Positions 21,744 through 48,111 of a stretch of DNA of 64,000 nucleotides are shown piece by piece. The translations under genes and the position numbers were made by a program. The DNA is from the human T2T-CHM13v2.0 reference genome, Homo sapiens. Under the pieces are notes generated by a model. That model worked only from the letters and a program-made list of their open reading frames with translations. It was not told the origin of the DNA and did not search any database. The stretch is from NCBI RefSeq assembly GCF_009914755.1, contig NC_060947.1; one strand, given 5' to 3'. The stretch's first letter is position 1, and the number at the start of each line of letters is the position of its first letter.

Positions 21744-22043
21744 TTATGGGAAGGATTTATTGATCCACACCATTTTCCTGGATTTTCTACGCTCCCTGTG
21801 GTATAGAGATGGGTCAATGGCATAGTGTTTTAACAAAGGCCAATTCCACCCTGGTATGGTTTGCGTCTGTGTCCACAGCAACTCTGTCAGATTCGCATCA
21901 TTTCTGTGATTCCCAAGCTGTCTGCTGAGCAGAATGCTCAGCATGGATTTAGAGGCCAGACTGGGTCTTAAGTATTTGTTTGCCTTCCTCCTGGTGCTCT
22001 GTGCAGATGCGCTGGGACTGACTTCAGAGTGTCCCTGAGCCAT
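21744..22043 (-). CDS. ETD-family paralogue, 99 aa ([25 protein letters not shown]...[17 protein letters not shown]...), coding status unverified
   Basis: ATG in gcagtcATGg aligns with the ETDC start. Shares SPS and RQLGxxRxDxxLxxxLW. Open for 300 nt. Homologous AATAAA at 21756-21761. Confidence 0.55.

Positions 22044-22101: not shown

Positions 22102-22145
<44 letters not shown>
22102..22145. repeat. (CA)n microsatellite
   Basis: Visible dinucleotide run upstream of the minus-strand ETD paralogue. Confidence 0.95.
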
Positions 22146-22147
<2 letters not shown>

Positions 22148-25099: not shown

Positions 25100-26832
<1,733 letters not shown>

Positions 26833-42791: not shown

Positions 42792-44199
42792 TCATCTCAT
42801 ATAATCCTCAGAAATTCCCAAGAATGATGGTGCTATTGTTATCTTTACCATACAAAAGGGGAACCTGAAGATCACAGAGGTTTAGGGACTTGCCCAAAAT
42901 CCCACAGAGCTTGGATTAAAAATCAGACCACCTGTCTCTTGAGCCTGTGTTCTCAGCCATGTCTGTATGTAATGATGTTTTACTAATTTGGACAAATGAC
43001 AGTCCCCACCCTACCATTATACAGCAGGGGTGGAGTTCATGAGTTCAATTAGTTTGTTGATGGCAAGTAAAGATGCTACATTATCTGGTTGTATCTAGAT
43101 GTTTTATCTCCCAGACCACTGAGCAGCCACAGTTCCCAAAGGAGTAGCAATTGGTCTGGGAGAGAGGGTTAAGAAGAGAGAGGAAAAATTAATTTCTCTT
43201 TCTCCTACATTGTTTCTCTGAGTCCCAGGACATGATTGGTTAAGTGCCAACAGGAGTCATGATGACTCACAATGCAGCTGAGAACCCTGTTACCATTTGC
43301 AATGACAAGAACTAAACACTAGCCACTACCACCAGGGTTACTCCTGGTTCAGGGCTGAATACAGTGAGTAAGTGGGAGGTGCTGGCAGAGGGGGTAGATA
43401 TTACTTTGTAATATCTGTTCCCTAGACACTCAGTTATCTTGGCCTCAGAGCTATTCCCTGGCTCATGCAAAATCTGTTAACAGGCCAAGAACACTGTTAA
43501 AATATTTTGGTAACTTCTGTGGGAGGAGTTACCAAAATCTGTTAACAGTATTCATTGCATTTCCACAGGTCCACTGGGCAATGATCAGCAATTCTGACTT
43601 CAAGATCCAATCACCCAGTGAAAGCTACAAGAGAACTCAGTACAAGGTAGTATTCCCTTTTCTCTCTCAGTCTCTACACCCAGCTTTGGTCATGACTGTA
43701 ATTATCACTTTTATAATACACAATTCATGTAAATGGGGTGTTTAATTGCAGAAATTTGACTGAGAGTACCCATATGTTTCAAGCCATATTCCCTTCCAAG
43801 TCTCTGATCTAGAATAACTATATTGTTACCATTAAAGTGTGACCCATATGGGTATTGTCCAGAGGCAGGACATGAATTTTCCAGGCTGACAGAGGGATAA
43901 TGGTGGGGACAGAGCTTTGTGTTTTTTATAGTGCTGTTTCCCTGAGGAACTAAAATGACTATTATGAGTAGATGTGGCTTTTGTCCACACTGGCTCCCCA
44001 CTCAGTCTCACATAAGAAGGGAGGAAATTGAGGTACAAGTGCCTGAAAGTGGGACGTTTGTGACCCAAGTCACAAACTCTGTTGTTTGAGTGGCAGGAAA
44101 GGCTTAGTCCTCCAGGTTTTCTTCTACCCCAGGTAGAACCATGTAAAGACCCTGAGGCCATGTTTAGTGTTCCAAACAAATTAGTTCTGAACCCAAACT

Positions 44200-44410
44200 A
44201 ATTGGGTTCACATCCTGGTACTGCCACATACTAGCTATGTGACCTTGTGCCAATTCCATGATTTTCCTGTGCCTGTCTCCTGCCCTAGATAAATGGGAAT
44301 GACAGTTGCACCCACCTCAAGGTGTTATGAGGCTAGATGAGTTTCTGCATGTCAAGCCCTCAGAGAAGTGCCTGGCAAGCAGACAGTGCTCAGCTGAGGA
44401 GGGTGAGTAA
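44200..44410 (+). mobile_element. MIR SINE
   Basis: gggttcacatcctgg...tagctatgtgaccttg...taaatggg...cacctcaagg. Confidence 0.7.
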
Positions 44411-45090
44411 TGTTCGTATTGCTGGTGTTGTTATTCTTCTCATTACTGTATTACTGGTAAAACAGAGGATGCCAAGGAAGCCTAAGGGACTAGACAATAG
44501 ATGTCTTCACCTCTTCACTTTCCCAATGCAAGGAGAACCTCTTAAAGTCACAGACAGGGTTGACAATTTTCCCTGGCTACGTCTGTTCTCTTTCCTTGAA
44601 CTCCATTGACAGGTTCATTGTCTATGTTTTTGTGGGTTTTTGGTTTTGGATGACTTCCCTCTGACCACGCTCCTTGTGTAACAATTCCTTTGGAAGAAAT
44701 AGGTGAGACAATGACTGTAGGTCAACTTGCCTTAGTGTTGCCTGTCCATGTCTCAAATCTGTACCTCTGAAGAATCTTGTTTCATTTAAATACCACTGAC
44801 AGAATTGGCTTGCACACATATTCTCATGCTTTTTTGTGGAAATACACTCAAAAATGACACTTATACAACTGATAGTCCCAACTCCTTTCTTACAGTCCTC
44901 CAACTTACATTTCTATACCAGAACTTCCATCATCACTATGCTGTAAATTCTTCTAGACCTTGTTTTCTGCATTTACTTTTATATATGGCTCCATGAAGAA
45001 ACAAAAATAGGATGATAAAATGCATAATGTTTTGCAAGTTTCTTTCTTCAATTACCACTTTTTAGAGATATTTTTCATGCCTTTTTAAAA

Positions 45091-45357
45091 ATTATTTATT
45101 TATTTATTTATTGAGACGGAGTCTTACTCTGTAGCCCAAGCTGGAGTGCAGTGGTATGATCTTGGCTCACTGCAACCGCTGCCTCTTAGGCTCAAGTGAT
45201 GCATCAGCCTCCCGAGTACCTGGGACTACAGGCACATGTCACCATGCCCAGCTAATTTTTTGTATTTTAGTAGAGATGGGGTTTCACCATTTTTTCCAGG
45301 GTGTTCTCAAACGCCTGAGCCCAGGCTATCTGCCTGTCTCGGCCTCCCAAAGTGCTG
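45091..45357 (-). mobile_element. Alu (antisense, 5'-truncated)
   Basis: (ttta)n tail, then gagacggagtcttactctgtagcccaagctggagtgcagtgg. Confidence 0.92.
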
Positions 45358-46233
45358 TCATGCCTTTAAATAGAGAACCCCATCATCTTTTTCAATGGCT
45401 GCTTTTTATTTCACATTATTGATATAACAATCTATTAACAATAGGAATTCAGAAAAATTGCCTCTGTCAACCAAGGAAATCACCCAGTTTGACAAAAATG
45501 TAAGGTAGACACAAGCTAAACACATAAAAGAAGATATTGTATGCTCCTCTAAGAATAAATTATGAAATAATAGGAATAATATATCCAGTTCACACTGGCC
45601 ATCAGATATACCTGAATATGATTTTTTTAAATACTGAGAATTATTCATGAAACATTTTTATATGTTTCCTGTTTGACACTATTATACCATTATTTCTAGA
45701 TTGAAAAATTAATTACTATATCATTTCTGCCACCATTTTAATCTGTGAACTCAGTGCAAGCACAGTCATGAACCTCCATATGAATTTGACATGAAACAAA
45801 ATGAGCTGATTATTCAATTAAAAGGACAAGAACACATATGGGAATAACCTTGATAGGGAGCTTGGCCTACAAGACATGAAAACCTACATAATAGATTTAG
45901 AAATTAAAACAGGGATGAAAATTGCCTCAATAAAACAGAGCAGATTCTAGATACAGACCCGTGTGTATGACAGAATGAAAGAAATAGTATCGTTGGCATT
46001 TTAAATCAGATCATGGCCCAGAGCAATCTCTTATGACTGCTGCTGGTAGCAGAGTGTGTTAGTATGTGTCTGTGTGGGTATGGGTGTGGGTGTGTGGGGG
46101 TGATGTGATAGGGATGTGATAGTGGACAGTGAGGAAAAGACCCCTGGGTCCACTTGGTTATCTTGATTTCATCATTTTTACCAGGCTTTCTTGGTTGTGC
46201 TGTCTTTCTGAGGCAACGTGGAGTCTACCAGTC

Positions 46234-46461
46234 ACGGACAAAGGACTCTCTGAAGTCAGTCCCAGCACACCTGCACCAAATATCAGGAGGAAGGCAGATG
46301 AATACTTAAAGTCCAACATGTCCCCCAACAATGTGCTGAGTTTTTTACTCGGTAGACAACTGGGGAGGCACAGAAATGATGTGGATCTGACAAAGTGGTT
46401 GTGGATGCTGACACGAGCAATGCCAGGGTGGAGCTGGCCTTTGCCAAAAAAAATCACGTGA
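46234..46461 (+). pseudogene. ETD-family paralogue with ACG at the start position (75 codons open); pseudogene or non-AUG/internal-ATG gene
   Basis: (T)[74 protein letters not shown]. Conserved acceptor ttttaccag|46185, AATAAA at 46520-46525, in-frame ATG at 46318. Confidence 0.75.
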
Positions 46462-48111
46462 CTTACAAGCACATGCCTACACAGAATCTTGGAAAATAAT
46501 TTTTTTTAAAAAGTATTAGAATAAAATTCTTCCCTAGCTTCAGCTATTGAAATAGAAGCTGTGTTTTCATTTATTTTGGTTTGATATGTTTTTATGCTGA
46601 TATGGCTTTCTTGAGTTACACTGGACAGGGGATTCTATTCATTCTAAACATTCTGTGCAGGAGCACTCAGACACAGGGGAGATACAGGTCATGCTGCAGA
46701 TCAGATTTCTTCCACCATAAATCTTTCTTTTTTTTTCAAAGCAAGGGAGTACTTAGGTTAGTACCAGGCCATGCAAGGATGCAAGACTCCTCTCCCTAAC
46801 GATTTTGAAGAGATATCCATCCAGTTCTCCTCTAAAACCTAATTGCTTACCCAGATGAAAAGATATTTGAGAATAATGAACCCATGAGTTGGGTGGGAGG
46901 TTTAGGATACCTTTTTATTCTGATGCTCATGAGAGCACCATTTAGAAACTACAGCATTGTGGATTTTTGGTTCTATTTAATATTAAAAAATTAGAGCACA
47001 AGGCATTTTAATATAGGGAACAGCATACTTTCAGATCCTTCTAAAAGCAGTTGTTCTTCTCATTGTCCCCAAAGAAGTAGAATCCCCAGGTGCACTTATT
47101 TGTGCCATCTGAAATAAATCTGTTTAGGCCACAGCCAATTGAAGAGAATTCATTTGACTGAAGTGGAACTAAACCAGAGGATAACAAGACTGTGACATGG
47201 CTTCCAGGAAAAAAAAGCTAAAGGACTGGGAAATACAGGTATTCGCTCTGAGACAAGTGAAATGAGAATTATGTAGGCAATTGGTCACTGAGAAGTGAGA
47301 GCTCAAGCTGAAGAGGGGACAGGGATTGCAAAGAGGTCAGAGCCATGGTGGATATGGGCAAGCTTAAGTTAGGAGTAAGATGAAATTAACATAAGGTCAA
47401 CCATTAAAGCCATTGCAAATTCCAAGCATTTCTCTTGTCCTTTCCTGTGAGCTGCAAAATAAGCCTGCAAGCAGTCCTTCTGTGCCCTCTTCCTCTCCTC
47501 CCAAATTCTCTGGGTCCTCACAACCTGTCCAGCACTCCCCAAGGCCTCTTCCTGTCTCTCCACCTCCACCTACATCTAAGGCGCTGTTACTGTCTCTCCC
47601 CTTAGCCAGGTTTCTTCCAGATTTGTGTTAGGTAGAAAATTTAACCCTTCCATGTCCTTTTCACCCTCCTCTCTGTCCCTGTCGCCTTCTCTGTCCCTGC
47701 TCTGATTCAATATTGCCAAAAAATAGCCACCAGCCTCTCTTCAGAGGATGCAGCTGGCTGTAGGATGAAATGGGGAGGGGTTAGAGACTACAAGGTAGAA
47801 GGGCCTCCTGGGTGCACTGTTGGTGGGAACACTGCCTGGACACTCCTGCATCGGTGACTATTTTCCTGCAGTCCAGCATCAAACAGTGGCTGCGAGGAGG
47901 AGAAAAGGTGGGGAATGGAGACTGAAAGAGCAGCAGGTAGGCCAAGAAGGAGTAAAACCCACAGGAGCAGAGGCCGATAACAGCCAACCTCCTATACCCC
48001 ATGGCCACACAACTGAAGAGACAGAAATTAGGATGCATAGTTACACATGGATAAATCTCACCATCATATTGAGTGAGAAAACAAGTAGCATAGAAGGGTC
48101 CAGTAGTGCTT

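What the first reader, a model, noticed from the sequence alone, without database searches (positions are those of the whole stretch)
46185..46525. ETD paralogue with an ATG->ACG start change but an otherwise intact gene skeleton
Seen: ccagtcACGg matches the Kozak context of the minus-strand copy. Acceptor, 75-codon frame and AATAAA are all preserved, and an in-frame ATG at 46318 would give a 47-aa product containing the conserved RQLG...WLW core. Known: ACG is among the more efficient near-cognate start codons. Inference: either a recent lineage-specific or polymorphic start loss, or non-AUG translation.
Basis: partly seen in the sequence, partly recalled or inferred. Interest (0 to 1): 0.7.

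Follow-up and report, generated by a model that had tools for sequence, protein, structure and literature searches.

The report
Ninth human ETD-like gene, start lost
This is an overlooked ninth member of the small X-linked ETD testis gene family, apparently the human counterpart of a gene that is intact in mouse, dog and bear; in this human genome it has lost its ATG start and its tail reading frame and is annotated only as a non-coding RNA.

Summary
Codon 46234-46236 is ACG in the context cagtcACGg, where all 8 other family copies in this genome have cagtc/catc-ATGg. The frame stays open for 75 codons, the acceptor at 46185 is used by a RefSeq lncRNA model, and AATAAA sits at 46520-46525.

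The gene skeleton is not otherwise intact. An A8 run (46446-46453) carries 2 extra bases compared with all 8 paralogues. This shifts the frame at codon 73 and cuts off the conserved tail, which is still readable in the other frame.

The locus is not a close paralogue of ETDA/B/C, and it is not one of the eight ETD-like genes described in print. It is an unpaired ninth copy. Its nearest relatives are proteins of other mammals (68-85% identity), including mouse 1600025M17Rik and a gelada model that starts with M. Human paralogues are only 54-63% identical. It is also the slowest-evolving human member of the family.

My best reading (about 0.6) is a recent loss of the gene on the ape or human line, after the split from Old World monkeys. 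It is still transcribed, as the last exon of LOC105373342. Translation from ACG or from the inner ATG is not excluded (about 0.17), but the tail frameshift and the 10 upstream ATGs in the model's leader argue against it. Ape genomes and human variant data could not be searched here.

The parts
42987..44182 (+). Promoter, exons 1-2 and the first part of the intron. This stretch is colinear with the region upstream of the four Q3ZM62-type ETD-like genes.
   Evidence: Identity is 63-69% over 42987-43760 and 79-81% over 43767-44182. K2P is 0.16-0.18 to the four paralogous loci, against 0.08-0.10 among the three distinct ones.
43253..43367 (+). Exon 1 of LOC105373342 (predicted RefSeq model)
   Evidence: Hub table. 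One search shows a GT donor directly behind it. There is no CpG island (GC 0.47).
43569..43646 (+). Exon 2 of LOC105373342
   Evidence: Hub table. One search shows AG before it and GT behind it.
43768..43888 (+). Intronic block that is better conserved among the five ETD-like loci than the coding exon
   Evidence: One search gives 90.9% identity over 121 bases to the ETDD-pair locus.
44289..44402 (+). Exon 3 of LOC105373342. It lies in a stretch that matches dispersed repeats and carries the ATG of a 66-codon upstream frame.
   Evidence: Hub table. One search covers the splice sites and the uORF that starts at transcript position 231. One search shows hits on many chromosomes for 44195-44400.
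46185..46321 (+). Annotated last exon of LOC105373342. Its acceptor is homologous to the acceptor of the ETD genes.
   Evidence: Hub table.
46234..46236 (+). ACG at the ancestral start codon. C46235 and G46236 form a CpG. G lies at -3 and G at +4.
   Evidence: 8 of 8 other copies have ATG.
46234..46461 (+). Open frame of 75 codons plus TGA. Codons 1-72 are the conserved ETD-like core.
46298..46309 (+). Out-of-frame ATG with a 3-codon frame that ends at TAA, 8 bases before the inner ATG. The same TAA ends the 66-codon upstream frame.
46318..46320 (+). In-frame inner ATG (codon 29, context aacATGt), which would give 47 aa
   Evidence: Gelada also has M at this position.
46446..46453 (+). A8 run with 2 bases more than in all 8 paralogues. 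It causes a frameshift at codon 73.
   Evidence: alignment. Several carnivore type-1 proteins read PKNH at this point.
46452..46499 (+). Remains of the ancestral tail in the other frame (15 codons plus TAA). It resembles the tail of the rodent and carnivore orthologues.
46520..46525 (+). AATAAA, homologous to the poly(A) signal of the other copies
45953..47500 (+). Stretch colinear with the coding exon and the downstream flank of ETDA/B/C/D
   Evidence: 70-78% identity, and the homology runs at least 1 kb past the poly(A) signal.

Best explanation
Window 46185-46525 is the coding exon of a ninth, unpaired ETD-like gene on human Xq. It is the human representative of an ETD-like lineage ('type 1') whose intact members include mouse 1600025M17Rik, rat rCG44244 and predicted proteins of Peromyscus, Marmota, dingo, wolverine and polar bear.

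Shown: on the line to this human genome it took two lesions.
- The start codon changed from ATG to ACG, a T>C change that created a CpG.
- An A run gained 2 bases, which shifts the frame at codon 73 and removes the conserved tail.

Inferred: the start loss came after the split from Old World monkeys. The locus is now a young unitary pseudogene whose exon survives as the 3' exon of the spliced lncRNA LOC105373342, and it makes little or no protein. Also inferred: the loss may have been tolerated because primates expanded the sister lineage (Q3ZM62 / ENSG00000293661 type) to four copies. One of those has peptide support according to PMC12679747.
For: 1. Family size. A whole-genome protein search finds 9 copies among 19 scored candidates, all on one stretch of chrX. 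These are four ETD genes, four ETD-like genes that each lie head to head with an ETD gene, and this one. No ETD-like partner turned up within 5 kb upstream of its promoter.

2. Orthology.
- All 15 of 15 database hits are at E<=0.01. The ETD-like proteins of other mammals are 68-85% identical, against 54-63% for the human paralogues.
- All 4 of 4 named rodent rows in the identity table are closer to it than to the Q3ZM62 type: 54-72% against 43-56%.
- It pairs with the gelada protein at 98-100% support.
- With the tail included, 18 'type 1' rows form one side of a branch. Support is SH-aLRT 99 in the quick tree and 80/73 in the careful tree. The primate pair sits next to the rodents.
- Polar bear has one protein of each type.

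3. Lesions.
- ACG stands where 8 of 8 paralogues have ATG. Gelada and the full-length orthologue rows begin with M at that position; four fragmentary or read-through rows do not.
- The A run carries +2 bases against 8 of 8 paralogues, and the old tail is readable in the other frame.

4. Recency.
- There is no stop or shift in codons 1-72.
- The end branch to human has length 0 over the 53 codons comparable with gelada. The 4 differences lie on the gelada side for 3 sites and are ambiguous for 1.
- It is the slowest of the three human lineages. Three-point NG86 dN is 0.014 (bootstrap -0.02 to 0.057), against 0.24 and 0.27. ML path lengths are about 0.17 against about 0.5 and 0.9 changes per site.

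5. Against translation.
- The leader of the spliced RefSeq model has 10 ATGs before the ACG.
- One 66-codon frame crosses the ACG.
- An in-frame stop lies 54 bases upstream, so no upstream ATG can feed the frame.

6. RefSeq calls the locus a lncRNA (hub table).
Against: - The conserved core is fully open and shows no amino-acid change on the human end branch. That is also what continued selection on a translated product would give.
- The ACG sits in a strong context (G at -3, G at +4) that it inherited from the ATG.
- The tail lost to the frameshift varies among mammals at its very end, so its loss need not inactivate the protein.
- The three-point dN is probably an underestimate. The ML tree puts about 12 replacements in 72 codons on the stem shared with gelada.
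- The separation of type 1 from the Q3ZM62 type before the primates is favoured but not proven. The AU test does not reject a primate-only clade (p 0.13 and 0.135), and the groups were named after seeing the sequences.
- No ape genome, no second human haplotype, no expression data and no ribosome-profiling data could be consulted.
- The transcript model is a prediction and stops at 46321.
Confidence: 0.6

Rival explanations
1. The gene is still protein-coding. Ribosomes initiate at the ACG (75 aa) or scan on to the ATG at 46318 (47 aa), and the product keeps the function of the conserved helical core.
For: - Strong context gtcACGg.
- Core of 72 codons without a stop or a shift.
- End-branch length 0 to human, against 3-4 replacements on the gelada side.
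- Slowest-evolving human family member.
- The 47-aa product would keep the two better-predicted helices, 31-42 and 47-62.
Against: - There is a second lesion, the +2 frameshift that removes a tail kept in rodents and carnivores.
- The leader has 10 upstream ATGs, one upstream frame crosses the ACG, and a mini-frame ends 8 bases before the inner ATG.
- The ACG is not conserved. Gelada and the full-length mammalian orthologues have M at that position.
- One peptide specific to this frame has 0 occurrences in Table S1 of PMC12679747. This is weak evidence, because that table may not have been searched against this frame.
Confidence: 0.17
2. The ACG, the A8 run, or both are polymorphic or private to this haplotype, and alleles with ATG and an intact tail segregate in humans.
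For: Both lesions lie at highly mutable sites: a CpG (C>T would give ATG) and an 8-base homopolymer. Only one haplotype was available. This is inference from mutation biases, not from data.
Against: - RefSeq models the locus as non-coding, whereas NCBI predicted proteins for the same gene in Marmota, Peromyscus and Callospermophilus.
- Among the 64 profile hits there is no human or ape protein of this type.
- Two independent private lesions in one small gene would be unusual.
Confidence: 0.1
3. It is an old, long-dead duplicate of ETDA/B/C or of a Q3ZM62-type gene that happens to have kept an open frame.
For: It has no ATG, it is annotated as a lncRNA, and the family has other decayed members. 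ETDD has a stop at codon 4.
Against: - It is 71-78% identical in DNA to every paralogue, so it is not a recent copy.
- Even so, it is the least changed protein sequence of the family.
- It has its own orthologues with M starts in several orders.
Confidence: 0.03

Closest known systems
Mouse 1600025M17Rik (UniRef A0ABA7IW08_MOUSE, 94 aa) and its rodent and carnivore counterparts ('type 1' ETD-like proteins)
   Same: - Same conserved core.
- Same tail, once the human sequence is read in the other frame behind the A run.
- Same side of the tree.
- Not paired with an ETD gene. PMC11601488 says that the mouse gene is not antisense to Etd.
   Different: The human copy has ACG in place of ATG and a +2 frameshift at codon 73. 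Identity to mouse is only 54% (38 of 71), while it is 69-77% to Peromyscus, Marmota and dingo. Synteny was not testable.
Q3ZM62 / ENSG00000293661 family (SMIM10L2B-AS1, ENSG00000293662, ENSG00000293663): the four 'antisense ETD-like' genes of PMC12679747
   Same: - Homologous coding exon (54-63% protein identity, 75-78% DNA identity).
- Homologous promoter and upstream exons.
- Same Kozak context.
   Different: - Those four are 99 codons long and start with ATG.
- They end in a tail that reads through the poly(A) signal.
- Each lies head to head with an ETD gene.
- They evolve 3 or more times faster.
- The copy studied here is unpaired, and its downstream flank matches the ETD genes instead.
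ETDA, ETDB, ETDC (59 aa) and the pseudogene ETDD
   Same: - Same acceptor position, core motif and poly(A) signal.
- The exon and at least 1 kb of downstream flank are colinear at 70-78%.
   Different: - Only 46-53% protein identity.
- ETD genes stop at a TAA where this copy reads on.
- They lack the PGW.WPLP segment as coding sequence.
Human unitary pseudogenes still transcribed as lncRNAs (general class; MYH16 is the example discussed in PMC12679747)
   Same: Orthologues are intact in other mammals, the lesions are few and young, and the locus is still transcribed (inference plus the hub table).
   Different: No signature of neutral decay is visible yet in the core. Population and ape data are missing.

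Membership tests
ETD / ETD-like gene family of Xq | Significant similarity over the conserved core (invariant P10, L38, R41, G44 and D49; near-invariant QL and LW) | tested here: met
   (E 4e-25 to 1.5e-10 to the eight other copies). (invariant columns over 19 sequences).
ETD / ETD-like gene family of Xq | Lies in the same chrX cluster, with the whole coding sequence in one terminal exon between a conserved acceptor and AATAAA | tested here: met
   (all nine copies lie within 133.44-133.73 Mb). (aligned acceptor and poly(A) signal).
ETD / ETD-like gene family of Xq | ATG-started, uninterrupted reading frame | tested here: not met
   ACG at the start. +2 bases in the A run at codon 73.
'Type 1' ETD-like lineage (mouse 1600025M17Rik type) | Closest relatives and tree position are with the rodent and carnivore 92-94-residue proteins | tested here: met
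   (identities). (18 rows on one side of a branch; SH-aLRT 99 quick, 80/73 careful). Caveat: the AU test does not reject a primate-only clade (p 0.13 and 0.135).
'Type 1' ETD-like lineage (mouse 1600025M17Rik type) | Tail of the H(I/V)TY..MP..N.GK kind | tested here: met
   It is present, but only in the shifted frame at 46452-46499.
'Type 1' ETD-like lineage (mouse 1600025M17Rik type) | Conserved synteny with the mouse gene | not testable with these tools
   No mouse genome or gene map is held. The literature searches gave nothing on its position.
Q3ZM62 / ENSG00000293661 'antisense ETD-like' genes | Head-to-head pairing with an ETD gene across a shared promoter region | tested here: not met
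   No ETD-like match on the minus strand within 5 kb upstream of 43253.
Q3ZM62 / ENSG00000293661 'antisense ETD-like' genes | 99-codon frame ending in the ...VWINKSFP tail | tested here: not met
Genes translated from a non-AUG start | Near-cognate codon in a strong Kozak context | tested here: met
   gtcACGg.
Genes translated from a non-AUG start | The near-cognate start is conserved among species | tested here: not met
   Gelada and the full-length mammalian orthologues begin with M at that position. Four fragmentary or read-through rows do not.
Genes translated from a non-AUG start | Direct evidence of initiation or of the protein | not testable with these tools
   No ribosome-profiling data are held. 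One frame-specific peptide is absent from Table S1 of PMC12679747, which is only weak evidence.
Unitary pseudogene | Intact orthologues elsewhere and disabling lesions here | tested here: met
   (intact proteins in rodents and carnivores). (two lesions).
Unitary pseudogene | Neutral pattern of change since inactivation | tested here: inconclusive
   No replacement on the human end branch in 53 codons. This fits a very recent loss or continued selection. There is no orthologous DNA to count silent changes.

The most novel reading that the evidence does not exclude
The human orthologue of mouse 1600025M17Rik is still a working micro-protein gene that switched from AUG to ACG initiation (or to the inner AUG) on the ape or human line and tolerates a shortened tail. 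That would be a natural, evolutionarily recent AUG-to-near-cognate start switch in the most conserved member of a testis gene family, hidden in a locus annotated as a lncRNA.
Probability: 0.15. Interest if true: 0.65.

Novelty: new member of a known kind. Interest (0 to 1): 0.4.

Why it matters
The ETD-like family was only recently promoted to coding status, and it is described in print as eight genes. This locus adds a ninth. It is the least changed copy in the human genome, and it appears to be the true counterpart of the mouse gene that the literature assigns to the Q3ZM62 group.

If this holds, three things follow:
- Human–mouse orthology for this family needs correcting.
- Mouse knock-outs of 1600025M17Rik would model a gene that humans have probably just lost, not ENSG00000293661.
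- The locus is a clean test case for telling a young unitary pseudogene from a near-cognate start, because both lesions sit at highly mutable sites that population data can resolve quickly.

Tried and rejected
- Pfam gave 0 families for 3 of 3 family proteins at E<=10.
- Rfam gave 0 matches at gathering score over 42900-46800.
- An in-frame upstream ATG as a rescue is rejected. The spliced model has an in-frame stop 54 bases before the ACG.
- A partner ETD gene upstream of the promoter was looked for and not found.
- A recent chimera of an ETD and a Q3ZM62-type copy could explain the 'intermediate' sequence. I rejected it for recent times because orthologues with the same make-up exist in several orders, and because both halves of the core are intermediate.
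- Structure: AlphaFold2 with a 19-row alignment gave mean pLDDT 58.6 and pTM 0.27, with three helices. That is too weak for a fold search, so none was run.
- Gelada's odd C-terminus is not a lesion I can read. Its last 11 residues map to a downstream stretch at 47337-47369, so that model is spliced.
- The search with the Q3ZM62-type protein returned 8 proteins among 10 candidates. The one named hit is macaque and the rest are primate-like. That search cannot show that the type is absent elsewhere, and the profile search did find bear and sheep members.
- Literature: searches for LOC105373342, 1600025M17Rik, Q3ZM62 and the three ENSG ids and for Etd with Zfp449 found no description of this locus. 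In PMC12679747 and PMC11601488 I read only the passages around the search terms, plus Table S1 by search. The large docx supplement could not be read.
Full report
THE SEQUENCE

On the plus strand, exon 4 of the RefSeq lncRNA model LOC105373342 starts at 46185, behind ...catcatttttaccag. Forty-nine bases further on lies ccagtcACGg, with the ACG at 46234-46236. From there the frame is open for 75 codons, to TGA at 46459-46461. AATAAA is at 46520-46525. The in-frame ATG at 46318 would give 47 residues.

THE FAMILY IN THIS GENOME

Within the window the exon matches two other places:
- the ETDC exon, 25178-25688 on the plus strand, at 71% over 529 bases;
- a minus-strand copy, 22059-21828, at 75% over 232 bases.

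Against the whole assembly, the 75-residue translation finds 9 places among 19 scored candidates. All lie between 133.44 and 133.73 Mb of chrX. They are:
- ETDB, ETDA, ETDC and ETDD (46-48% identity; the match reads across their stop codons);
- four 99-codon ETD-like frames (54-63% identity);
- the query itself.

By position, the four ETD-like frames are the genes that PMC12679747 calls SMIM10L2B-AS1, ENSG00000293661, ENSG00000293662 and ENSG00000293663 (window 21747-22043, minus strand, is ENSG00000293662). [quoted passage not shown] The locus studied here is none of the eight. It is a ninth copy, and it is unpaired: no ETD-like match lies on the minus strand within 5 kb upstream of its promoter. 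I found no description of it in print (searches; only passages of the two papers were read). Pfam has no family for any of the three window proteins.

TWO LESIONS, NOT ONE

In the alignment of all nine copies from 130 bases upstream to 420 bases downstream of the start, 8 of 8 other copies read ATG where this one reads ACG. The flanking context is shared with the four ETD-like genes.

The same alignment shows that the A run at 46446-46453 is 2 bases longer than the matching stretch in all 8 other copies. The frame from the ACG therefore leaves the family's frame at codon 73 and meets TGA three codons later. The other frame, 46452-46499, still reads a 15-residue tail. That tail closely resembles the rodent and carnivore proteins, several of which read PKNH exactly at the A run. 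'Otherwise intact' is therefore too generous.

ITS OWN ORTHOLOGUES

A search of the large protein collection returned 15 of 15 candidates at E<=0.01.
- The best are ETD-like proteins of other mammals at 68-85% identity: gelada, dingo, Ursus, Marmota, goat, sheep and Peromyscus.
- Mouse 'RIKEN cDNA 1600025M17 gene' is at 54%.
- All of the first group are closer to this locus than any human paralogue is.
- The gelada model begins with M followed by the same seven residues as the human frame. The ATG was therefore still present in the common ancestor of apes and Old World monkeys, unless gelada regained it.

A profile search gave 64 proteins at E<=0.001 among 713 candidates. The ETD-like proteins among them fall into two kinds by their tails:
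- a 92-94-residue kind, found in rodents, dingo, wolverine and one polar bear protein;
- a 99-residue kind whose frame reads through the poly(A) signal, found in the other polar bear protein, sheep, the vaquita model's core, and the primate Q3ZM62 type.

Polar bear has one of each kind.

Trees:
- On the 72 core columns alone, the 99-residue kind forms a clade with 91/94 support. The human locus and gelada (100/99) lie outside it.
- With the tails added, and the human tail read in the other frame behind an X, the 18 rows of the first kind form one side of a branch. Support is SH-aLRT 99 in the quick tree and 80/73 in the careful tree. The primate pair sits next to the rodents.
- The AU test does not reject a tree that holds all six primate ETD-like rows together (p 0.13; p 0.135).
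- I named the groups after seeing the sequences.

An origin before the primates is therefore favoured, not proven. The preprint states that the mouse orthologue of the Q3ZM62 ORF 'is not antisense to mouse' Etd. That fits the unpaired locus described here better than the paired genes do. All 4 of 4 named rodent rows are closer to it than to the Q3ZM62 type.

GENE STRUCTURE AND HISTORY

The upstream part of the locus, 42987-44182, covers the promoter, exons 1-2 and the first part of the intron. It is colinear with the region upstream of all four Q3ZM62-type genes. Over a 415-base intron stretch, K2P to them is 0.16-0.18, against 0.08-0.10 among the three distinct ones.

The exon and at least 1 kb downstream (45953-47500) are colinear with the ETD genes at 70-78%. 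The locus thus shares its 5' side with one sister lineage and its 3' side with the other, as an undivided ancestral gene would. This last point is inference.

RATE OF CHANGE

Over the whole aligned region, K2P distances are:
- about 0.36 to the ETD genes;
- 0.47-0.54 to the Q3ZM62 type;
- 0.61-0.70 between those two groups.

Three-point Nei-Gojobori estimates over the 58 codons shared by all nine copies give the following (500 bootstraps).

| Lineage | dN | Bootstrap range |
|---|---|---|
| This locus | 0.014 | -0.02 to 0.057 |
| Q3ZM62 type | 0.24 | 0.16 to 0.33 |
| ETD | 0.27 | 0.19 to 0.37 |

For this locus dS is 0.24, with a very wide range (-0.04 to 0.63), so omega is not bounded. The estimate for this locus is probably too low. 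The ML tree puts about 0.17 changes per site on the stem shared with gelada, against roughly 0.5 and 0.9 for the other two human lineages.

Both measures agree that this is the slowest human member of the family. It is even closer to pig-family ETD proteins (66-69%) than human ETDC is (61-63%). The end branch to human has length 0 over the 53 codons comparable with gelada. Of the 4 differences, 3 are gelada-derived and 1 is ambiguous by the other rows.

From recalled primate substitution rates I expect about 2.5-3 replacements under neutrality on that branch. That makes zero mildly unlikely (roughly 0.05-0.09). It is a weak hint that constraint lasted for most of the time since the split.

CAN IT STILL BE TRANSLATED?

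Points in favour:
- the context gtcACGg is strong;
- the core is intact.

Points against:
- The spliced RefSeq model has GT-AG at all three introns and a 356-base leader with 10 ATGs.
- One of these ATGs, in exon 3, opens a 66-codon frame that crosses the ACG and ends at TAA 46307-46309.
- An in-frame stop 54 bases before the ACG rules out an upstream ATG feeding the frame.
- The inner ATG is preceded by an eleventh ATG (46298), whose 3-codon frame ends 8 bases before it.

The model is a prediction and stops at 46321, so other leaders and the 3' end remain open. One peptide specific to this frame does not occur in Table S1 of PMC12679747, which is weak evidence.

The predicted structure is poor: pLDDT 58.6, with helices at 15-25, 31-42 and 47-62. 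It says only that a 47-residue product would keep the two better-predicted helices.

VERDICT

The locus is a new, ninth member of the ETD-like family. It is probably the human orthologue of mouse 1600025M17Rik, and it was disabled recently, after the split from Old World monkeys. It survives as a lncRNA exon. Translation from ACG or from the inner ATG, and polymorphism at the two highly mutable sites, remain open. Both can be settled quickly with ape genomes, human variant data and testis ribosome profiling, none of which were available here.

Noticed in passing
window 21747-22043 (-), with flank to 22146: A 99-codon ETD-like frame that starts with ATG. It is the partner of ETDC and, by position, ENSG00000293662 of PMC12679747. 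It is not in the RefSeq table supplied. A (GT)n run at about 22104-22146 sits where the other copies have their splice acceptor.
   Followed up: partly
window 43768-43888: A block inside intron 2 of LOC105373342 that is about 85-91% identical to the matching stretch upstream of all four Q3ZM62-type genes. It is better kept than the coding exon, so it may be a regulatory element or an unannotated exon.
   Followed up: partly
window 25463-25510 and 46405-46461: The ETD genes stop at a TAA where this locus and the Q3ZM62-type genes read on. The start of the ETD 3'UTR is homologous to the coding PGW.WPL segment of the ETD-like genes.
   Followed up: partly
L023 (G000:C23:133723192-133723374): ETDD has TAA at codon 4, which matches the 'premature stop' stated in PMC12679747.
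   Followed up: yes
window 46395-46396 and 47337-47369: The gelada protein model leaves the exon after codon 54. Its last 11 residues map to a stretch 0.9 kb downstream (9 of 11 identical in human). This suggests an alternative donor inside the coding exon and a further downstream exon.
   Followed up: partly
window 44195-44400: The stretch holding exon 3 of the lncRNA model matches many places on other chromosomes, so it is probably derived from a repeat. This exon supplies the 66-codon upstream frame.
   Followed up: no
L024 (G000:C23:133577651-133577840) against window 43213-43401: The stretch homologous to this locus's first exon and promoter lies, inverted, across the annotated start of ETDA. 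This fits a shared bidirectional promoter in the ETD / ETD-like pairs (hub table).
   Followed up: no
proteins P0003 and P0027 (Ursus maritimus): Polar bear carries one ETD-like protein of each tail type. This is the clearest sign that the two ETD-like lineages are older than the primates.
   Followed up: partly
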